The position numbers and the translations under genes are program-made. From positions 1 to 6,776 of IMG/VR virus record IMGVR_UViG_3300022758_000105: a DNA stretch of 6,776 bases; one strand, written 5' to 3'. This stretch comes from a virus. Of this stretch, positions 864 to 6,776 are shown one piece after another. The notes beneath the pieces are model-generated. The model made no database searches, was not told where the DNA came from, and was given only the letters and a program-made list of their open reading frames with translations. Position 1 is the first letter of the stretch. Each line of letters starts with the position of its first letter.

Positions 864-1061
864 TTAACGATTAATATTAATTTTAGTACTATCAACACTA
901 GACGTAGAAGTTTGTTCAGTTTTCTGTGTCGAGTTTTGATTGTTCTTTGAAATAGACATAGAAATAGTGCAAGACTGTAAAAACAAAGTGGTAATAACAC
1001 CAACGATAAAAGTTGAAATTAATTTTACAATTTCAATCCATTGTTGAGGAGTAACTTTCAT
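864..1061 (-). CDS. Small membrane protein, 65 aa, with a signal-anchor or lipoprotein-like N-terminus (lysis or exclusion candidate)
   Basis: This is the ORF track entry 864..1094 trimmed to the first ATG (1061-1059). Translation: MKVTPQQWIEIVKLISTFIVGVITTLFLQSCTISMSISKNNQNSTQKTEQTSTSSVDSTKININR. It has one hydrophobic helix (LISTFIVGVITTLFL), then a lipobox-like LQS|C, then a polar S/T/N/Q-rich tail. It is co-oriented and tightly spaced with the downstream ORFs. Confidence 0.6.
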   Translation of the reverse strand: MKVTPQQWIEIVKLISTFIVGVITTLFLQSCTISMSISKNNQNSTQKTEQTSTSSVDSTKININR

Positions 1062-1178
1062 AATAAAACAAGTATTAGTTAAACAACACTGCAATAATAG
1101 AAATAAAAATCATAATAACCAAATAAAATGATGTTTTTTTTAGAGTAAGTGTAATTTTTCAAAAGAAAGACAAGAAGT

Positions 1179-1700
1179 GGGAGCTTTGAATGAGGTAAAT
1201 TCAAAGCCCTTCGGGAAAAATTAAATAGGCTTCGCCAATGAAATGAACTAGGGGGCAGCGATGCCGAACCGTTCCGCCCTTTCGGGCGCAGGTGTGTGCT
1301 ATAATAATATAAAATAGTAAAAAGAATATACAAATAATAAATATAGCACAACACTTTAATAAGAACGAGGAGCACATCTCCTATGCGGCTACGCCTGCAT
1401 AGGGCTGTGCTCCTCGTGGGGAGGGCTGCGCACTGGCACGTCCAGCGGCTGGACAGTGTTTGCATCATACGAGGTTGTATTTACCACCTCAAACGCCGGG
1501 GGGCTTCGGTGCATAACGGGAGGGTGAGGTGTGCCTTTATCCGAGAGGCGGCTACCTTAAGACCAGAATAAGGAGTGACGTGCACCCGGCCGGAGGCCGT
1601 GGTGTGCGGCTTCGCCGATACTATGGTGCTAGACGCTAAGGAGGGCTATGCGCCCTCTATTGCTCCATCAGCGTTCAAACGCCACGCAGGCTCGAAGATA
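1179..1700 (+). ncRNA. Candidate large structured non-coding element (RNA class unassigned; strand tentative; could also act as ssDNA structure in the viral strand)
   Basis: There is no credible ORF in any frame. By hand count, G+C is 233/400 (~58%) over 1201-1300 plus 1381-1680, versus 20-27 per 60 nt in four sampled coding lines. Watson-Crick helices verified by hand: 1183-1191/1199-1207 (9 bp), 1254-1257/1262-1265 (GCGA loop), 1275-1279/1284-1288 (TTTC loop, GAAA on the other strand), 1292-1303/1342-1354 (12 bp, 1 bulge, 38-nt A/T loop), and 1365-1376/1406-1417 (12 bp) stacked on 1380-1386/1397-1403 (7 bp). Further helices: 1437-1445/1449-1458 (9 bp, 1 bulge), 1471-1475/1486-1490, 1583-1591/1595-1604 (9 bp, 1 bulge), 1607-1610/1614-1617, 1641-1646/1652-1657 and 1671-1674/1679-1682. 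There are two cTTCGg motifs (1209-1214, 1504-1509). The + strand call rests on G>C (129 vs 104 in the sampled 400 nt), the UUCG and GCGA loops, and more G-T helix extensions on + (about 8) than on - (about 4). This is weak evidence. Confidence 0.4.
1292..1354. repeat. Inverted repeat forming a GC-clamped hairpin with a 38-nt, almost pure A/T loop
   Basis: tgtgctata (1295-1303) pairs with tatagcaca (1342-1350). gtg (1292-1294) pairs with cac (1352-1354) across the bulged A1351. The loop 1304-1341 is ataatataaaatagtaaaaagaatatacaaataataaa. Confidence 0.8.
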
Positions 1701-1922
1701 CTACTCGACTATAACCAACTCGTAACTACTAACAAGATTTTCAGAGTTAAGCATATCATGCAAAGACGAATAGCGATAAACGGTAAAATCATAGTCCTGA
1801 TAATAAGGAAAGTTTTTTCGAACCCACCTCTTAAAATAAGCCTTGGCATTAGAACGAGAACCAATATAGGTATTAGCAACAAAAGAACCACAATACAATG
1901 TAAAATAAAATTCTTCTTTCAT
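1701..1922 (-). CDS. Minimal GIY-YIG nuclease domain protein, 73 aa (I-TevI / Seg-like homing-endonuclease catalytic core without a DNA-binding domain)
   Basis: ORF track sequence: MKEEFYFTLYCGSFVANTYIGSRSNAKAYFKRWVRKNFPYYQDYDFTVYRYSSLHDMLNSENLVSSYELVIVE. FYF-x11-YIGS...KRW.R..F parallels I-TevI GIYQIKNTLNNKVYVGSAKDFEKRWKRHF (recalled from memory), and SEN parallels the catalytic ERENFW Glu. AAGGAG (1935-1930) lies 7 nt upstream of ATG 1922-1920. The ORF ends about 12 aa after the putative catalytic Glu, exactly at the border of the GC-rich island. Confidence 0.7.
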   Translation of the reverse strand: MKEEFYFTLYCGSFVANTYIGSRSNAKAYFKRWVRKNFPYYQDYDFTVYRYSSLHDMLNSENLVSSYELVIVE

Positions 1923-2106: not shown

Positions 2107-2160
2107 CAAATATAAGAATAATTATTATAATCGCAAAATTATTATAATCAATTATAGCAA
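2107..2160 (-). promoter_or_regulatory. Promoter cluster for the minus-strand transcription unit: Bacteroides-type TTTG-N19-TAnnTTTG plus three TATAAT hexamers, one in extended -10 form
   Basis: The minus strand reads TTGCTATAATTGATTATAATAATTTTGCGATTATAATAATTATTCTTATATTTG. It carries TTTG (2137-2134), a 19-nt spacer, then TATATTTG (2114-2107), about 30 nt upstream of ATG 2077. TGcTATAAT lies at 2159-2151, with further TATAAT hexamers at 2146-2141 and 2129-2124. The cluster lies directly downstream of the VP2 terminator. Confidence 0.5.
2120..2149. repeat. 13-nt perfect direct repeat AATTATTATAATC x2 (2120-2132 and 2137-2149) inside the promoter region
   Basis: Indexed by hand; the two copies start 17 nt apart, and each contains TATAAT on both strands. 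Confidence 0.8.
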
Positions 2161-2194: not shown

Positions 2195-2223
2195 AAAAAA
2201 AACTCCCCCGGTCGACGGGGGAG
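2195..2223 (-). terminator. Rho-independent terminator downstream of VP2
   Basis: The minus strand reads CTCCCCCG-TCGAC-CGGGGGAG followed directly by TTTTTTTT. The stem is 8 bp (7 of them G-C; 2203-2210/2216-2223), the loop is 5 nt and the T8 tract is 2202-2195. The hairpin begins 5 nt after the VP2 stop (2229-2231). Confidence 0.85.
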
Positions 2224-2228
2224 CACCA

Positions 2229-3365
2229 TTAACGACGAATAGAACCTATAGCGTTTCCAACAACGCCAATAGTACGAAGTCCTTCCTCATAATACCGTTT
2301 ATTATAATTCCAACGGTCAATAAGAGATTTAAAGGACTTAGATTCAGCATCACGCCTTCCGGCTTCCTGGGCTTTTTGACCAAAGCCCATATTATAAGAT
2401 ATTTGCGATTCATATTGAGTACTCATAGCTGCAATATATTCATCAGCAAGGGCAAGAGCATTACGGTAATCAAGATCATTCTTCTTAGACATAGAATCAT
2501 ACCAAGTACCTTGCTTAGCCATTAAAATCTGTTTGGCAATAGATTCCTTACATTGCTGATACTTCAAATGTCCAGCAGCCATCATATCATAATACTGGGC
2601 AGCCATCACGTTAATACGAGTCTGTTCGGACTGGTCAAGATACTTATTCAAAGTACGCTTAGCAGCGACAGAAAGTAACAAATCTGTGCGTTCAGCCTTT
2701 TGAAGCAAATTAGTCCAACGCAAGTTTTGAAGATTCTGCTTATTAGTATCATAGTCAAGTTGTATACGCTGTAAACCAGTCTCACGCATCCATTTCCTAT
2801 AATCTGGGGAAAGTTTTCCCCAGTCAATATTAGAAAGAATCTGCATAAACTGGGCTCGTGCTACCTCTGCTTCTCCTTGCAAAACCTTAGTACGAGCATT
2901 AGACTCACGTTCCTGATAGAGCATCTGTCCGGCTCGTCCAAACTGTGAGCCAAGTTCTGAATAAACTTCAGGATTCACGGAAAGAGGAGGAGCAGCACTA
3001 GCTTGAGAAGTACTACCAGTAGAACCTGCAATACCAGTATTCGAATCATATCCCAAATAAGGGTTATATCCGGCTTCAGCACGCAATCTACGCTGATTAG
3101 CAGGAGAATTGTACTCGTTCTGTTTATTCCACATCTCAAGCTGAAAATCACGAGCCTTCTGGGCTTCACGAGCATTAAACTCGTTATTCATTTGATTCTG
3201 AAAAACATTCTTATTGTTAGAAGCGGCACCAAGAGCAGCACCACCAATAGCACCAATAGCACCAATAAGAGCAGGAACAATAGCTACATCATAACCATTA
3301 CTGGGCAGAAGCTGATTCAGAGCTATCGACACCAGAATCAGCAACAGAAGCTTGAGCGGTTTCAT
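2229..3365 (-). CDS. VP2: Minor capsid / DNA pilot protein VP2 (378 aa from ATG 3365; the ORF track begins at TTG 3374)
   Basis: The N-terminus has a hydrophobic Gly/Ala-rich segment (VPALIGAIGAIGGAALGAA). It is followed by EFNAREAQKARDFQLEMWNKQNEYNSPANQRRLRAEAGYNPYL, which matches the conserved microvirus VP2 signature (R-x-FQ...M-x-N...AG-x-NP-x-L). The gene overlaps the upstream ORF by 68 nt in another frame. The start codon is uncertain (ATG 3365 vs TTG 3374). Confidence 0.85.
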   Translation of the reverse strand: MKPLKLLLLILVSIALNQLLPSNGYDVAIVPALIGAIGAIGGAALGAASNNKNVFQNQMNNEFNAREAQKARDFQLEMWNKQNEYNSPANQRRLRAEAGYNPYLGYDSNTGIAGSTGSTSQASAAPPLSVNPEVYSELGSQFGRAGQMLYQERESNARTKVLQGEAEVARAQFMQILSNIDWGKLSPDYRKWMRETGLQRIQLDYDTNKQNLQNLRWTNLLQKAERTDLLLSVAAKRTLNKYLDQSEQTRINVMAAQYYDMMAAGHLKYQQCKESIAKQILMAKQGTWYDSMSKKNDLDYRNALALADEYIAAMSTQYESQISYNMGFGQKAQEAGRRDAESKSFKSLIDRWNYNKRYYEEGLRTIGVVGNAIGSIRR

Positions 3366-3810
3366 TTTCAGCAAGTTGTTTTAACGCTTCAGATTTCATA
3401 TCCTCGGCAAGTTCATTAATAGAGTCAACCCAAGCAAGAATCTCACTAGGTTGCTGAAGATGGCGAGATTTAACCATAGACAACAACTCATCATCAGAGG
3501 GGTTCAATTTGTCCAACTGTTCTTGTAAAGAAGAAGAACGAGGTCTCTTAGAATCCATAAAACGTTGAGCAGTAGAAACACCAACACGTTTAGCCAAATC
3601 AGCAGCGTGAAGCAACATACTTACATCAGAACGAATTCGATAAGAGACATTATCTGAAGAACACTCCACTTTTTCAAAACGAAAAGTTTCTATAGGATCA
3701 ATCTCGAGAGCAATCTCTTCCGGACGTTGAGACGGAAAAACATTAACAGAGCGTACAGGTTCAAATTTCCTAAAACCAGAACCAAAACAAAATATCTTTT
3801 TCTTACTCAT
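3298..3810 (-). CDS. VP3-like internal scaffolding protein candidate (170 aa)
   Basis: ORF track entry 3298..3810. It sits between VP1 and VP2, and its ATG lies 11 nt after the VP1 stop. It has an acidic C-terminal tail and its size is typical of microvirus scaffold proteins. The functional call rests on position and size, not on a motif I can verify. Confidence 0.6.
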   Translation of the reverse strand: MSKKKIFCFGSGFRKFEPVRSVNVFPSQRPEEIALEIDPIETFRFEKVECSSDNVSYRIRSDVSMLLHAADLAKRVGVSTAQRFMDSKRPRSSSLQEQLDKLNPSDDELLSMVKSRHLQQPSEILAWVDSINELAEDMKSEALKQLAENETAQASVADSGVDSSESASAQ

Positions 3811-3821
3811 AACAATAAAAT

Positions 3822-5675
3822 TTAATATGGAACACCATCACGAGACAATGGACGAACAACTTTACAACCAACATAGGCATTAACTAATAATTGATCTGTA
3901 TCCCAAGTAGAATCGGCCTTAACTGCAAAAATATCATCCAAAGTATTCGGATTAACTTTGAAGAACGGCCACTGAACAGCAGAACCAACACTAGAGAACC
4001 ACTGATAAAGATAAGAATCATCAACAGGAGCAACCCAATCCTTTAAAGTAGTAGTAAAAGCACCGTGAACACGATCAATATTCGTCTTCCAAGCATAATA
4101 ACGAGGATTATAACCTAAAATAGAATCAACCTTAACAGAACTAGAAGAAAACAAAGCACTATTAAACAATTGAACAGCAGGAACAGATTCCATACCAATA
4201 TTATCGAATTCCGGAATAGGAAGTTCATCAACAGAAGTAGCCAACAATTGAGGAGCATGGCCAGAAATATTGTAATCAAGAAGAGGCATCGCATGATAAA
4301 TACACATCAAGATACAATATTTAGAACCTGTAGTATAACGCATAGAACCAGTACCAGTACCTACACCTTTACCATAGATAACGGCTTCGCCATCACCTTG
4401 TAAGTTATTATTAACAACTTCAGAAATATCAAGATTTCGAGCAATACCTCCGATATATTGAGCCATGTGAGAATCAGAGGCAGGAACATTAACACCGAAG
4501 TGAGCCTTAATCTGGTCACGATAATTGGTATCAACAGACTGGGTAATTTCACGATATTTCTGCAAAGCTTCTGCTTGACGAAGAGCAAGAATATTGAATG
4601 AAGCAAGTACTGAAGCATCCCTAGTAACAAGGTTAGTACCAGCAGGAATAGGAGTAGGAGGAGTAGAAGAAGGCTTTATCAAAAAAGAAGAACTCGAATT
4701 AACCTCCGCAAAATTTTGAACAGTTAAATTAGAAGTACCAAGACGAACTTGAGAATAACCAGTTTCGCCAGTAACATCTACAACAGCGATATCTCCAAAC
4801 TGGGAATTAGGAAGAACTCCCATAAACATATCCTTATTCCAGTTACAATAACGAAGAGAAAATAAATTATCTCGCTTCCAGTAATCGTTATTAGCTGCAA
4901 TAGAAGAAGAAATACTCGTACCAAAAATATTACCAGAACCAGTATACCAGTCAAAATTATAAGAAGTAGGGTCTGCATTTTCCCATTGCGACCAGCGGAA
5001 AAAATCTTGATAAATTTTCTGATAAGCAGCAAGAGGAAGAAGATTCACAGCCAAATCATACTTGAAAATTTGAGTATAAGTTTGAGAAGATTCATCCAAA
5101 GGAGCTTGCATATTCCACCAACGATGAGAACTACCACCAATAGACAATGCTGAAGTAGTCGGAATAACATTACCATAATTAAGCATGTGAAGCAACTTGT
5201 AATTAACATCACCACGATTATATCCGAAAATATTAGCATGACCAGAAGGAGCAGAAGGAGAAGTACCAGTACTCAATACACCAGACGACAAAAATGTCGA
5301 CCAACCTAAATCAGATAAATTACACCAAGGAATATCACCTTTAACAGTAAGAGCGTTTAATAAGTCCCTAGATTGAACTGGAGCAATTTCACCCATTTGA
5401 ATAACAGAAGCGTCAAAAGATTTCCAAAGAAGATCAATAGGAACGGCATAAAAATCAAAATATTCACGAACACGAGTGTAAGCAGCAGTCTGCACGGGAC
5501 GAGTACGAGTAAAATACTGCAAATTAATGTCGTAAGTACAACCAGGTAAACCTAAATCCCAAAAGACAGGAAGAAGTTCACCACACTTAGCAGAAAACAC
5601 ATTTTTAGCTCCAATATCAAAACCAGAACGGTGAGAATGATTCTGAAGCTCTTTTAAACCTGTAAAATGAGCCAT
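3822..5675 (-). CDS. VP1: Major capsid protein VP1 (F-like jelly-roll), 617 aa
   Basis: ORF track entry 3822..5675. The N-terminus HRSGFDIGAKNVFSAKCGELLPVFWDLGLPGCTYDI fits the conserved microvirus capsid N-terminal pattern (FDLS..., G-E-L-x-P, LPGD-x-F). It is the largest ORF, with a size typical of Alpavirinae or Gokushovirinae VP1. Confidence 0.95.
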   Translation of the reverse strand: MAHFTGLKELQNHSHRSGFDIGAKNVFSAKCGELLPVFWDLGLPGCTYDINLQYFTRTRPVQTAAYTRVREYFDFYAVPIDLLWKSFDASVIQMGEIAPVQSRDLLNALTVKGDIPWCNLSDLGWSTFLSSGVLSTGTSPSAPSGHANIFGYNRGDVNYKLLHMLNYGNVIPTTSALSIGGSSHRWWNMQAPLDESSQTYTQIFKYDLAVNLLPLAAYQKIYQDFFRWSQWENADPTSYNFDWYTGSGNIFGTSISSSIAANNDYWKRDNLFSLRYCNWNKDMFMGVLPNSQFGDIAVVDVTGETGYSQVRLGTSNLTVQNFAEVNSSSSFLIKPSSTPPTPIPAGTNLVTRDASVLASFNILALRQAEALQKYREITQSVDTNYRDQIKAHFGVNVPASDSHMAQYIGGIARNLDISEVVNNNLQGDGEAVIYGKGVGTGTGSMRYTTGSKYCILMCIYHAMPLLDYNISGHAPQLLATSVDELPIPEFDNIGMESVPAVQLFNSALFSSSSVKVDSILGYNPRYYAWKTNIDRVHGAFTTTLKDWVAPVDDSYLYQWFSSVGSAVQWPFFKVNPNTLDDIFAVKADSTWDTDQLLVNAYVGCKVVRPLSRDGVPY

Positions 5676-5678
5676 AAA

Positions 5679-6776
5679 CTAAAAATTTAAATTAAACAAT
5701 AAACCTGATATATCATTATAATTCTTATGTTTAACTTTCTGAAAAATCTTCTGTTCAACAGATTTTTTCAAAGAGGACAAGGTAGAATTTAACTCATTCC
5801 AAAAAGATTTATCATCTTTAGGAGGACAAGAGAAATTAATAGACCTTGAACTTAAAAAAGCCTGGGATTCAGGATGAGCAGAAAGATAATCATAAAAATC
5901 ATTGATAAGTCTCAATTCCTTTCTAGACCAATACTCAAAAGAAGAAACAAATAATTTAAATAAGGATCTCTTTAAATCCTCGGGTAAAATATATCGATCA
6001 AGATGCCAAAAACGTAAAGTACGATTAACAGCAGAAAAAAACCTATAAATCTTACCTACAACGGAATCAAAATTAACTTGAACAGTATCCAAACGGATAA
6101 ACTTAAAAATTAAAGAATCATACCGAGAGGCAGTGCGATAACCAAGCTTTACACCATAATAAAAACGAGCATAGCGTTTAGCAAGCAAGAATGTAGAAAG
6201 ATTTTCATCTATTGATATATATCCGTTAAGTAGGAGCCGGTTGGATGCTGTGAACGCACCATAAAATAAGTCAATACAACTGTATGGATCCTTAAAAAAA
6301 GGGTCAGAGATTCGGGGGAATACTGTACGTTCATACGACCGTGAAGGTTTAACTGTGACATACTCACCATTAATCGGAACACTGAATCCATCAAGACACG
6401 AAGAGGAAACCTCTTGTATCTCTGAAATGTCGGACGATTGACGAAAGAGGCTATTAACCGATAACCCTTTGGAGTGGTAGGATCTAGGCTTAATTTCTTT
6501 GTGTCGGTTAAAAAAATCTGGTAAATCGACAAAACTATTAATATATGACGCAACATAGCCAGCTGCCGATCCTCTCGATAATGAACAATCTGTAAAACCG
6601 TAGCTCCAACTCTTAGATACCAACTCACATATAGACGAGGTGAGTGCGTCCGAGTTAAAGAATAATATACCATGCCAATGCGGGCGATATGTCCGTCCAC
6701 CATACTCTGATACAAGGTAGTAACATATTTTTTCATCGTATTTCTCTGCAATCAATTTACGTAAACGTTTAAAAAA
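5679..6776 (-). CDS. VP4: Replication initiation protein VP4, C-terminal part (same gene as 1-700)
   Basis: ORF track entry 5679..6755. Its first 'M' is really an internal TTG, and the frame is open to the window end. It contains the HUH motif RPHWHGILFF and the twin-tyrosine motif GYVASY (compare Y-V-A-K-Y in phiX174 protein A). The stop TAG at 5679-5681 lies 3 nt before the VP1 ATG. Confidence 0.93.
   Translation of the reverse strand, partial: FFKRLRKLIAEKYDEKICYYLVSEYGGRTYRPHWHGILFFNSDALTSSICELVSKSWSYGFTDCSLSRGSAAGYVASYINSFVDLPDFFNRHKEIKPRSYHSKGLSVNSLFRQSSDISEIQEVSSSCLDGFSVPINGEYVTVKPSRSYERTVFPRISDPFFKDPYSCIDLFYGAFTASNRLLLNGYISIDENLSTFLLAKRYARFYYGVKLGYRTASRYDSLIFKFIRLDTVQVNFDSVVGKIYRFFSAVNRTLRFWHLDRYILPEDLKRSLFKLFVSSFEYWSRKELRLINDFYDYLSAHPESQAFLSSRSINFSCPPKDDKSFWNELNSTLSSLKKSVEQKIFQKVKHKNYNDISGLLFNLNF
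6650..6776. repeat. Terminal redundancy, copy 2 (identical to 1-127)
   Basis: Same comparison as copy 1; the window ends inside the VP4 ORF exactly where the window start resumes it. Confidence 0.95.

What the first reader, a model, noticed from the sequence alone, without database searches (positions are those of the whole stretch)
1179..1700. A ~520-nt GC-rich, hairpin-dense non-coding island in an otherwise AT-rich, tightly packed microvirus genome: candidate large structured RNA of unassigned class
A 6.6-kb ssDNA phage has very little spare capacity, yet about 8% of this genome is a block with no credible ORF. By hand count its G+C is ~58%, against roughly 33-45% in sampled coding lines. 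Much of the block can be drawn into perfect or near-perfect helices, of which I verified at least 11 base by base (listed in the feature entry). These include a 12+7 bp coaxial hairpin (1365-1417) and three 9-12 bp bulged stems. Loop caps are of RNA-stabilising types: cUUCGg twice and GCGA on the + strand, and GAAA on the - strand. The + strand is G-rich (G 129 vs C 104 in 400 sampled nt), whereas sampled coding lines show roughly balanced G and C on that strand. I could not match the block by eye to RNase P, tmRNA, tRNA, 5S, riboswitch cores, hammerhead or twister cores, or group I P/Q/R/S elements. It sits immediately 3' of an I-TevI-like GIY-YIG ORF. That raises three possibilities: a degenerate or novel intron-like or mobile RNA; an autonomous large structured RNA comparable to ROOL or GOLLD in phages; or an elaborate ssDNA complementary-strand origin comparable to the ~500-nt intergenic region of filamentous phages.
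Basis: partly seen in the sequence, partly recalled or inferred. Interest (0 to 1): 0.85.

Follow-up and report, generated by a model that had tools for sequence, protein, structure and literature searches.

The report
New pseudoknotted RNA gene in microviruses
It is shared by over 100 gut microviruses, sits in either orientation relative to their genes, and would be the first such RNA gene known in these tiny ssDNA phages.

Summary
The hairpin-rich, non-coding island is real, but it runs from 1152 to 1705 and is a composite. It has a ~285-nt conserved core (1422-1705), lineage-specific hairpins with an AT-rich spacer (1246-1421), and a three-way-junction module (1152-1236). The core recurs once per genome in about 115 microvirus contigs and nowhere else: 0 hits in 185k bacterial species genomes with one strict pattern, and none in plasmids or non-microvirus phages. 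Covariation is strong: 95.7% of cells pair, 20 of 33 pairs change on both sides, and two pseudoknots covary. No Rfam family matches. Wobble pairs (31 versus 1) and GNRA loops show that the folded strand is the window's MINUS strand, not the G-rich plus strand. That strand is gene-sense here but antisense to every phage gene in 75 of 115 genomes. The window's core is 86% identical to that of phages whose capsid protein is ~21% identical. So it is an autonomous, horizontally exchanged RNA gene, not an ssDNA origin, intron, ORF or chimera. The neighbouring "GIY-YIG" ORF is a real protein but shows no GIY-YIG signal. Function is unknown; my best guess is a trans-acting folded RNA that binds a host or phage factor.

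The parts
1708..1735 (-). Sigma-70-type promoter-like site, TTGTTA-16 nt-TATAGT, immediately upstream of the RNA 5' end. The predicted start is near 1700.
   Evidence: The scan gives 9 of 12 matches. The same site is kept in window-lineage relatives. The T14-type lineage has TTATGT-16-TATAAT at the same distance from the first pseudoknot, in an unrelated sequence context directly after the pilot-protein stop. This is consensus evidence only; no transcript data exist.
1422..1705 (-). Conserved core RNA unit ('W type'), the part shared with distant microviruses.
   Evidence: It is 85.6-86% identical over about 283 nt to PV067927 and L015, whose capsid protein is ~21% identical. Covariance model R1 scores 171 bits on window 1548-1700, minus strand. 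There is one copy per genome.
1671..1691 (-). 5' H-type pseudoknot. The tail GCC (1689-1691) pairs with GGC (1681-1683) in the loop of hairpin D (1684-1687 with 1671-1674).
   Evidence: Pair 11-19 is CG in 64 and GC in 13 sequences. Hairpin D is 100% paired, with two pairs changed on both sides.
1641..1670 (-). Hairpin C (1652-1657 with 1641-1646) and the second pseudoknot. The nucleotides just 3' of hairpin D (1669-1670) pair with the loop of hairpin C (1649-1650).
   Evidence: Mutual information is top-ranked for 1649-1670 (TA 36, CG 17, AT 14, GC 6) and 1650-1669. Variants change together, for example ACC/GGT to ATC/GAT and GCC/GGC. All six hairpin C pairs change on both sides.
1605..1640 (-). 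Near-invariant junction CCUUAGCGUCUAGCACC(A/U)U(A/G)(G/A)UAUCG (1618-1640), then hairpin B (1607-1617) and CGCAC.
   Evidence: These are invariant or >=90% conserved columns in alignment A2 across all lineages. Hairpin B pair 89-95 is GC 48, AU 15, CG 13.
1583..1604 (-). Stem CACC-A-C with G-GGUG (bulged A), capped by the variable hairpin A.
   Evidence: More than 30 sequence variants of hairpin A all keep the pairing. The double change GCACCC...GUGGUG to GCGCCC...GUGGCG occurs in L095 and L075. G.U appears only on this strand, 18 of 78 at pair 106-120.
1422..1582 (-). 3' half of the core: hairpin E (1569-1573 with 1555-1559), the conserved C-rich motif ...CCUCACCCUCCCGUUAUGCACC, and further conserved hairpins.
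   Evidence: Hairpin E is 81.5% paired, with three pairs changed on both sides. The helices beyond E are only partly resolved, and alternative pairings are possible.
1357..1417 (-). Long perfect hairpin (1365-1417) followed by UUCUUAUU, a terminator-like end of the core transcript. It is specific to the window's sub-lineage.
   Evidence: MFE folds are. It is 93-98% identical in about 14 relatives and absent elsewhere.
1246..1356 (-). Lineage-specific insert: two GC hairpins (the GAAA loop reads on the minus strand) and a 66-nt AT-rich stretch (1299-1364) closed by the stem 1293-1305 with 1343-1356.
   Evidence: It is found only in the window's close relatives. The AT-rich spacer is the least variable segment among them, at 7.6 variable sites per 100 nt.
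1152..1236 (-). Three-way-junction module: hairpin GGC-GAA-GCC (1228-1236), closing helix 1215-1223 with 1152-1160, a small GNRA or triloop hairpin (1208-1214), and hairpin 1183-1207 with a conserved CUC-containing loop.
   Evidence: In alignment A3 (30 sequences), 99.8% of cells pair and 10 of 22 pairs change on both sides. The covariation score is 0.315 against 0.110 in shuffles, 0 of 500 reaching it. The loops read GCAA, GUAA, GGAA or GAAA only on the minus strand. The module occurs only where the RNA strand is gene-sense, and it is absent from six relatives that lack the core.

Best explanation
Region 1152-1705 is a gene, read from the window's minus strand, for a large, highly structured, pseudoknotted non-coding RNA. 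This RNA forms a family of its own and is confined to gut microviruses.

In this genome it is most likely transcribed from its own sigma-70-type promoter (1735-1708). The conserved ~285-nt core folds into a 5' double-pseudoknot domain, a near-invariant junction flanked by covarying hairpins, and a C-rich 3' domain. The core transcript probably ends at the hairpin 1417-1365, or reads on through a lineage-specific insert into a three-way-junction module (1236-1152).

Shown: the structure is conserved and covaries, the minus strand is the folded strand, the element is independent of phage gene orientation, it is exchanged horizontally, and it is non-coding.

Inferred: it is transcribed on its own. 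It acts in trans as a folded RNA, that is, a scaffold, decoy or sponge for a host or phage macromolecule and possibly a counter-defence or host-takeover accessory. It does not act through base-pairing with a neighbouring gene or as single-stranded DNA.
For: (1) Recurrence and restriction. A 21-base signature finds 37 IMG/VR contigs and about 70 true metagenome contigs, all microvirus-sized or concatemers. It finds none in 185,579 bacterial and archaeal species genomes. BLAST finds only Microviridae among 50,697 phage records and nothing in plasmids. The covariance model finds exactly one copy per genome.

(2) Structure. In alignment A2 (78 distinct sequences), 95.7% of cells pair and 20 of 33 pairs change on both sides (343 cells). 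The covariation score is 0.387, against 0.142 in shuffles (0 of 500 reach it) and 0.03-0.08 in slid controls. Both pseudoknots covary. The 3' module is 99.8% paired.

(3) Strand. In helices A-D there are 1417 Watson-Crick pairs. There are 31 A.C on the plus strand, which are G.U on the minus strand, against 1 G.U on the plus strand. The bias holds in both orientation classes, 13:0 and 18:1. Four-nucleotide loops are GNRA only on the minus strand.

(4) Autonomy. The RNA strand is gene-sense in 40 genomes and antisense to all genes in 75. GenBank annotations agree.

(5) Horizontal exchange. Between the window and L015, the only nucleotide similarities are the RNA (86%) and part of a small lipoprotein gene, in opposite relative orientation. 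Their capsid proteins are ~21% identical.

(6) Promoter-like sites sit at the same distance upstream in two unrelated contexts, and a terminator-like hairpin lies downstream.

(7) Not coding. Not in Rfam.
Against: There is no transcript evidence of any kind. The 5' and 3' ends are inferred from consensus scans only.

In the majority lineage, where the RNA would be antisense to the phage genes, I found no good sigma-70-type promoter on the RNA strand. Microviridae are not known to transcribe the non-coding strand.

The strand call rests on perhaps 8-10 independent wobble events, because many sequences are closely related.

Nothing identifies a partner, so 'trans-acting decoy or scaffold' is inference by elimination.

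The secondary structure of the 3' half is only partly resolved, and alternative pairings exist.

Catalogues of unnamed candidate viral RNA motifs (for example PMC10690425) could already contain it. Their tables were not available to me.
Confidence: 0.6

Rival explanations
1. It is a cis-acting RNA element of phage transcripts, such as a leader, riboswitch, attenuator, mRNA-stabilising structure or 3'UTR-derived element. It would control neighbouring genes, for example the small lipoprotein gene at 867-1061 directly downstream on the same strand.
For: In the window lineage and the T14 lineage, the folded strand is the mRNA-sense strand. It lies between the pilot gene and the small early ORFs. 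The three-way-junction module ends about 90 nt before the conserved 65-aa lipoprotein ORF. Every complete RNA-bearing genome has this ORF within about 1 kb. A 5' pseudoknot could protect against 5'-exonucleases. Alternative pairings hint at a switch.
Against: In 75 of 115 genomes the folded strand is antisense to all genes, so there is no downstream cistron for it to regulate. An 88-codon frame on the RNA strand next to the RNA in L015 was checked. It looks like low-complexity junk and is unrelated to the window's 73-aa ORF. The lipoprotein gene also occurs in microviruses that lack the RNA. The core is the same in both orientations.
Confidence: 0.15
2. It is a catalytic or self-processing RNA, or the RNA part of a mobile element, such as a degenerate or novel intron-like RNA or a ribozyme that aids its own spread between phage genomes.
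For: The near-invariant 26-nt junction, two pseudoknots and a tetraloop-receptor-like CCUUA/UAAGG motif are typical of ribozyme-grade folds. There is clear horizontal transfer between unrelated microviruses, with inversion. Peripheral domains are modular and swappable.
Against: There is no hit to any ribozyme or intron family in Rfam, including group I and II introns, HDV-like, twister, hammerhead, pistol and hatchet. The element interrupts no ORF. It lies after stop codons, in intergenic space. The neighbouring ORF is not a recognisable homing endonuclease and occurs only in one sub-lineage. No repeats or target-site duplications were noticed.
Confidence: 0.1
3. It is a single-stranded-DNA element: the origin of complementary-strand synthesis, or another ssDNA signal, of the packaged genome. 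Comparable elements are the phiX174 primosome assembly site, G4 oric, the M13 minus-strand origin and plasmid sso elements.
For: A GC-rich hairpin island in an AT-rich ssDNA replicon is the classic look of such origins. In the window lineage the folded strand is the packaged, gene-sense strand. Both strands fold far better than shuffles.
Against: Such origins are strand- and orientation-specific (established knowledge). Here the strand under folding selection is the non-packaged strand in 75 of 115 genomes, and the wobble bias is the same in both classes. Most microviruses lack the element, including p76-positive relatives of similar size, so it cannot be an essential origin. Conserved pseudoknots and GNRA loops are RNA signatures.
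Confidence: 0.07
4. It is protein-coding sequence, for example the 129-aa or 58-aa minus-strand ORFs or the 36/62/190-aa plus-strand ORFs. Alternatively, it is an assembly chimera.
For: Open frames exist. A ~130-codon minus-strand frame stays open in most close relatives. The 58-aa frame shows a weak 7:1:10 codon-position pattern.
Against: The three frames tested have no Pfam hit, and the two plus-strand frames no PHROG hit. Variable sites in the 129-aa frame fall 31:23:20 by codon position. Some relatives carry frame-breaking indels. Hairpin lengths vary by non-multiples of three. The same composite is assembled independently in about 14 samples at 92-97% identity, and the core in about 115 contigs.
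Confidence: 0.02

Closest known systems
ROOL and GOLLD (large orphan 'ornate' ncRNAs, often carried by phages and prophages of Firmicutes)
   Same: All are phage-borne, several hundred nucleotides long, non-coding, rich in conserved helices and pseudoknots, and patchily distributed like accessory cargo. All were found by comparative genomics with no function attached.
   Different: There is no sequence or structure relationship: no Rfam hit at E<=5. The core here is smaller (~285 nt; 330-550 nt with modules). It sits in ~6-kb ssDNA microviruses rather than large dsDNA phages, and in either orientation relative to the phage genes.
Single-strand origins: phiX174 n' site, G4 oric, M13 minus-strand origin, plasmid ssoA/ssoU
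   Same: All are GC-rich, hairpin-dense, non-coding blocks in a rolling-circle ssDNA replicon.
   Different: Those act as ssDNA on the displaced or packaged strand in one fixed orientation. Here the selected strand is the non-packaged one in most genomes. Most microviruses lack the element, and it has covarying pseudoknots.
Group I introns with GIY-YIG homing endonucleases (T4 td with I-TevI)
   Same: Both are structured RNAs of a few hundred nucleotides in a phage, mobile between genomes. By eye there is an R/S-like sequence resemblance (GGUGCUAGACGC, AAGAUACUA on the plus strand).
   Different: That resemblance is on the strand that is not folded. There is no Rfam intron hit, no interrupted gene and no exon continuity. 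The neighbouring ORF shows no GIY-YIG sequence or fold signal.
phi29 pRNA and other trans-acting phage RNAs (P4 CI / P1 c4 immunity RNAs, lambda OOP, RNA anti-defence decoys such as pseudo-ToxI or RNA anti-CRISPRs)
   Same: Each is an independently transcribed phage ncRNA that works as a folded molecule or decoy. Some lie antisense or convergent to phage genes, and they are accessory and horizontally mobile.
   Different: All of those are smaller or simpler and have known partners. None matches in Rfam. No CRISPR-repeat-like or toxin-antitoxin repeat organisation was noticed here, though I did not test for one.
Counter-transcript (antisense) RNAs of rolling-circle plasmids (pT181, pMV158)
   Same: Both lie in a rolling-circle replicon next to rep, on the strand opposite to rep. 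In the majority class the RNA is convergent with Rep and ends at its stop codon.
   Different: Counter-transcripts are 50-150 nt, overlap the rep leader and act by pairing. This RNA overlaps no coding sequence, is far larger, and is kept for its own fold. In the window lineage it is not next to rep at all.

Membership tests
Any Rfam 15 family (group I/II introns, ROOL, GOLLD, HEARO, OLE, raiA, RNase P, tmRNA, 6S, SRP, pRNA, riboswitches, self-cleaving ribozymes) | A covariance-model score at or near the family's gathering threshold | tested here: not met
   In the window at E<=1, the only hit is a spurious 23.7-bit match to HCV_SL669, whose gathering score is 80. In 11 homologous genomes at E<=5, only two snoRNA chance hits appear, both elsewhere in the genomes.
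tRNA / tmRNA | Cloverleaf or tRNA-like domain detectable by ARAGORN | tested here: not met
   0 genes on either strand.
Group I intron (with homing endonuclease) | It interrupts a gene, and removing it restores a continuous ORF or RNA | tested here: not met
   The element lies after stop codons in intergenic space, after Rep, the pilot protein or the 73-aa ORF. It occurs in both orientations relative to the flanking genes.
Group I intron (with homing endonuclease) | An associated GIY-YIG, LAGLIDADG or HNH endonuclease ORF | tested here: not met
   The 73-aa ORF has no Pfam, PHROG or PDB hit, and no Pfam domain in 61 homologue clusters. The confident AF2 model has no significant PDB match, and T4 EndoII ranks 35th with E = 3.9. 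The ORF is present only in the window sub-lineage and L095.
Group I intron (with homing endonuclease) | P3-P9 catalytic core with a guanosine-binding P7 | tested here: inconclusive
   There is no Rfam Intron_gpI hit. The helices I could establish do not map onto P3-P8. The sequence resemblance I saw is on the non-folded strand. The 3' half of the structure is unresolved.
ssDNA complementary-strand origin (sso, oric, primosome assembly site) | It lies on the packaged (gene-sense) strand in a fixed orientation | tested here: not met
   The folded strand is antisense to all genes in 75 of 115 genomes. G.T-type wobbles occur on that strand in both classes. That the packaged strand is gene-sense is established knowledge, not tested here.
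ssDNA complementary-strand origin (sso, oric, primosome assembly site) | It is essential, so present in all related replicons | tested here: not met
   Only about 25 of 50,697 phage records carry it. Six related p76-positive microviruses lack it, with the covariance model run filters-off scoring at most 6.6 bits.
Protein-coding gene | A conserved reading frame with third-position-biased substitutions and homologues | tested here: not met
   As a positive control, the neighbouring lipoprotein ORF gives codon-position entropies of 0.61, 0.40 and 1.22.
Conserved structured RNA (generic) | Base pairs maintained by compensatory changes beyond shuffled and slid controls | tested here: met
   Core: score 0.387 against 0.142 in shuffles (0 of 500) and <=0.079 in slid controls, with 20 of 33 pairs changed on both sides. 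Module: 0.315 against 0.110, with 10 of 22 pairs.
Independent transcription unit | Its own promoter and terminator, and a detectable transcript | tested here: inconclusive
   Promoter-like and terminator-like sites are found in the window and T14 lineages. None is convincing in the majority class. Transcripts cannot be tested with these tools.

The most novel reading that the evidence does not exclude
This is the first dedicated non-coding RNA gene, and in most carriers the first antisense transcription unit, in Microviridae. It would be an ornate, double-pseudoknotted RNA class that hops between unrelated gut microviruses as accessory cargo. It would act as a ribozyme-grade fold or an RNA decoy against a host system. 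A 6-kb phage spends 5-8% of its genome on it.
Probability: 0.5. Interest if true: 0.85.

Novelty: categorically new. Interest (0 to 1): 0.8.

Why it matters
Microviruses are the textbook minimal phages: about 6 kb, overlapping genes, one coding strand and no known RNA genes. A conserved, pseudoknotted 285-550-nt RNA takes up 5-8% of the genome. It is exchanged between lineages whose proteins are barely alignable, and in most carriers it is encoded on the 'silent' strand. Two things follow. First, some function is valuable enough to pay that packaging cost. Second, microvirus transcription is probably not strictly unidirectional.

The finding adds a well-supported new class to the short list of large orphan bacterial and phage RNAs. 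It comes with more than 100 sequences ready for covariation modelling, probing and cryo-EM. It also gives a direct handle for asking what RNA-based host manipulation or counter-defence looks like in abundant gut ssDNA phages: delete or invert the element, or pull the RNA down. One caveat is that unnamed candidate-motif catalogues could already list it.

Tried and rejected
- My first viral-contig scan used a mis-spaced pattern (N8 instead of N7) and found nothing. I corrected it.
- Five metagenome hits on large GC-rich contigs were chance matches. Reading the sequences and the covariance model both rejected them.
- RNAalifold on raw MAFFT alignments of mixed lineages gave unstable long-range helices. 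A permissive helix finder was too noisy. I kept only helices supported by anchored extraction, mutual information and the pair-count tool.
- A by-eye resemblance of the plus strand to the group I R/S elements and the Azoarcus intron was dropped once the minus strand proved to be the folded one and Rfam stayed silent.
- A partial resemblance of the minus strand to the 16S rRNA 3' end (AAGGUAGCCG...CACCUC) is confined to some W-type members, and the consensus differs. I judged it chance.
- The anti-Shine-Dalgarno-like CCUCC motif is not universal; the T24 and T3 types lack it.
- A recalled similarity of the 5' tail to a Bacteroides type II-C CRISPR repeat was not testable and is not conserved across types, so I dropped it.
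- An 88-codon antisense frame next to the RNA in L015 is unrelated to the window's 73-aa ORF and looks like low-complexity junk.
- The tight co-occurrence with the 65-aa lipoprotein looked like a two-gene module, but that gene also exists without the RNA.
- Seven literature searches found no description of a microvirus ncRNA.
- The supplement of the 10,006-motif viral RNA catalogue was not available.
- I did not use the second genome-collection scan, because any looser pattern would give mostly random hits.
Full report
WHAT IS THERE

The window is a complete microvirus genome. All recognisable genes are on the minus strand: capsid 3822-5675, Rep 5679-6755 (continuing across the window ends), pilot protein 2229-3374, and small ORFs.

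- G+C is 52.1% against 36.2% elsewhere, not ~58%. Blocks of 59-66% G+C are interrupted by a 66-nt spacer of 15% G+C.
- It is G-rich on the plus strand (151 G, 121 C).
- It folds much better than shuffles on both strands (z = -6.2 and -5.4).
- No tRNA or tmRNA is present.
- No Rfam family matches at E<=1.
- The open frames inside it have no Pfam or PHROG homologues. The 129-aa minus-strand frame shows no codon-position bias, with variable sites 31:23:20.

IT IS A RECURRENT ELEMENT, NOT A CHIMERA

BLASTN against 50,697 phage records found parts of the region in about 21 records, all Microviridae from human, lemur and rodent gut. A first alignment already showed compensatory changes in three hairpins, separated by invariant single-stranded stretches.

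A 21-base signature from those stretches gave the following.
- It hit 37 IMG/VR contigs of 4-6.6 kb.
- It hit 77 metagenome contigs. Five on large GC-rich contigs are chance matches, and the rest are microvirus-sized or concatemers.
- It hit nothing in 185,579 bacterial and archaeal species genomes.
- Plasmids gave nothing.
- A second phage search, using a divergent family member as query, again found only microviruses, none annotated as RNA.

A covariance model built here finds exactly one copy per genome. The window scores 171 bits at 1548-1700 on the minus strand. The window's whole composite (1100-1425) is 92-97% identical in about 14 independently assembled relatives.

ANATOMY

The shared unit corresponds to window 1422-1705. 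It is 86% identical to PV067927 and L015. Read on the minus strand, it contains the following, in order.
- An H-type pseudoknot at the 5' end: tail 1689-1691 pairs with the loop of hairpin D, which spans 1671-1687.
- A second pseudoknot: 1669-1670 pairs with the loop of hairpin C, which spans 1641-1657.
- A near-invariant junction, CCUUAGCGUCUAGCACC.U..UAUCG.
- Hairpin B (1607-1617).
- A stem with a bulged A, capped by the hypervariable hairpin A (1583-1604).
- Hairpin E (1555-1573).
- A C-rich conserved motif and further hairpins.

On 78 distinct sequences, 95.7% of cells pair and 20 of 33 pairs change on both sides. The covariation score is 0.387, against 0.142 for shuffles (0 of 500 reach it) and at most 0.079 for slid controls.

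Downstream on the minus strand, the window's sub-lineage has an insert (1246-1421). It holds a long terminator-like hairpin, an AT-rich loop and two GC hairpins.

Then comes a three-way-junction module (1152-1236). It is shared with the T14-type lineage (Dulem virus 244/245 and relatives), is 99.8% paired, and has 10 of 22 pairs changed on both sides.

Other lineages carry different peripheral domains around the same core, and some of these are shared between types. So the family is modular, like other large RNAs.

WHICH STRAND FOLDS

In helices A-D, extracted without alignment, there are 1417 Watson-Crick pairs. There are 31 A.C mismatches on the plus strand, which are G.U pairs on the minus strand, and only one G.U on the plus strand. 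The alignment-based count gives 67 against 17. The 3' module has a conserved G.U on the same strand. Its 4-nt loops read GCAA, GUAA, GGAA or GAAA on the minus strand but UUGC, UUAC or UUCC on the plus strand.

ORIENTATION AND TRANSFER

Relative to the phage genes, the RNA strand is gene-sense in 40 copies: the window lineage, T14, and a few others. It is antisense to every gene in 75 copies. GenBank annotations agree with this. The wobble bias points to the same strand in both classes, 13:0 and 18:1. This rules out an effect of ssDNA deamination or of the packaged strand.

Between the window and L015, capsid identity is ~21% and Rep is not alignable. The only nucleotide similarities are the RNA and part of a 65-aa lipoprotein gene, in opposite relative orientation. 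The window itself looks like a replacement. It has a T14-type 3' module, but its core is of the type otherwise found in the antisense class.

WHAT THIS EXCLUDES

- An ssDNA complementary-strand origin must sit on the packaged, gene-sense strand in one orientation. This is established for phiX174, G4, M13 and plasmid sso elements. Here the selected strand is the non-packaged one in most genomes, and most microviruses lack the element altogether.
- An intron is excluded. The element interrupts nothing, flips orientation, and has no Rfam intron signal.
- The alleged GIY-YIG neighbour is a genuine conserved 73-aa protein: 61 clusters, an AF2 model with pLDDT 93.6, and strand-strand-helix-strand-helix-strand topology. 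It has no GIY-YIG sequence or fold match, and it occurs only in the window sub-lineage and L095.
- Coding and chimera explanations are excluded, as shown above.

HOW IT PROBABLY WORKS

An element kept for the fold of one strand, whatever the direction of the surrounding genes, is best explained as its own transcription unit producing a functional RNA.

In the window, a sigma-70-type site (TTGTTA-16-TATAGT, 1735-1708) lies just upstream of the first pseudoknot. The T14 lineage has TTATGT-16-TATAAT at the same distance in unrelated sequence. A terminator-like hairpin with a U-rich tail follows the core. Strong Shine-Dalgarno sites, a canonical intrinsic terminator (2224-2202) and sigma-70-like promoters suggest a host with standard sigma-70-type signals. 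In the antisense class I could not find a convincing promoter. This is the main weakness of the explanation.

Several features fit an accessory RNA that binds a conserved host or phage factor, such as a scaffold, decoy or sponge, possibly for counter-defence. These are the near-invariant junction, the double pseudoknot, the rarity of the element, and its horizontal spread as cargo. That last step is inference. A cis-regulatory role in the gene-sense lineages, or catalysis, cannot be excluded.

COMPARISON AND NOVELTY

The RNA behaves like the orphan ornate phage RNAs ROOL and GOLLD, but it is unrelated to them and to every Rfam family. Seven full-text searches found no microvirus ncRNA. Public records annotate the region as nothing, or as a spurious 'hypothetical protein'. 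I therefore rate it a new RNA class. The caveat is that unnamed motif catalogues could not be checked.

VERDICT

Interest is high.

Noticed in passing
window 867-1061 (-), within listed ORF 864-1094: A 65-aa ORF with a signal peptide plus lipobox (VQSC) and an S/T/N/Q-rich tail is clearly coding, with codon-position entropies 0.61, 0.40 and 1.22. It is 55-98% identical, over the aligned stretch, in every complete RNA-bearing genome. It is always on the gene strand, 300-1400 nt (mostly 480-1050) from the RNA core. Apart from the RNA, it is the only nucleotide-level similarity between the window and L015. It also occurs in microviruses without the RNA (Tortoise microvirus 97, bajarodmic virus 65/585, Dulem 232/252/256). 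Such conservation across lineages with ~21% capsid identity is itself unexplained.
   Followed up: partly
window 1701-1922 (-): The 73-aa ORF called 'I-TevI-like' is a real conserved small protein: 61 clusters, all on ~6.5-kb contigs. It has a confident AF2 fold (pLDDT 93.6; strand-strand-helix-strand-helix-strand) and no significant PDB match. It is an orphan fold family restricted to the window sub-lineage and L095. Its last codons overlap the RNA promoter and 5' end.
   Followed up: yes
window 2202-2224 (-) and 2124-2151 (-): A canonical intrinsic terminator (9-bp GC stem plus T7) lies directly after the pilot-protein gene. It is followed by a 10/12 sigma-70 promoter-like site ahead of the 50-aa and 73-aa ORFs. 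This suggests a separate transcription unit between the late genes and the RNA.
   Followed up: no
window 1299-1364: The 66-nt AT-rich spacer (15% G+C) is closed by a 12-13-bp stem (1293-1305 with 1343-1356). It is the least variable segment among 11 close relatives. On the minus strand it contains TTGTAT-16-TATATT (8/12, by eye). A 58-aa TM-like frame across it (1201-1377, minus strand) shows a weak 7:1:10 codon-position pattern but is frame-shifted in some relatives.
   Followed up: partly
L088 (10,976 nt), positions 3059-3211 and 9013-9166; L073: L088 carries two different types of the RNA on one contig. It is either two microvirus genomes joined or a mis-assembly through the shared RNA. 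L073 carries two near-equal-scoring copies about 6.3 kb apart, so it is probably a concatemer.
   Followed up: no
L039 about 5490-5650 and L010 about 3290-3470 (regions between the core and the flanking gene): A further GC-rich peripheral module (…UAGGUAGCGC(G)CUACG(C)GCGGAUUUUA…) is shared between a T14-type and a T5-type genome. This indicates that accessory domains of the RNA are themselves exchanged.
   Followed up: no
window 1535-1573 (-), W-type members: CCUUAU can pair with the adjacent UUAAGG (universal hairpin E) or with GGAUAAAGG further 3' (W type only). A GGAG-like tract 5' of hairpin C also covaries with the hairpin's own strand. These may be alternative conformers or a switch.
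   Followed up: partly
window ends (1 and 6776): The Rep ORF (5679-6755, minus strand) probably continues across the linearisation point into about 1-600. Rep in the related Dulem 245 is 551 aa. ORF lists for the window therefore under-report it.
   Followed up: no
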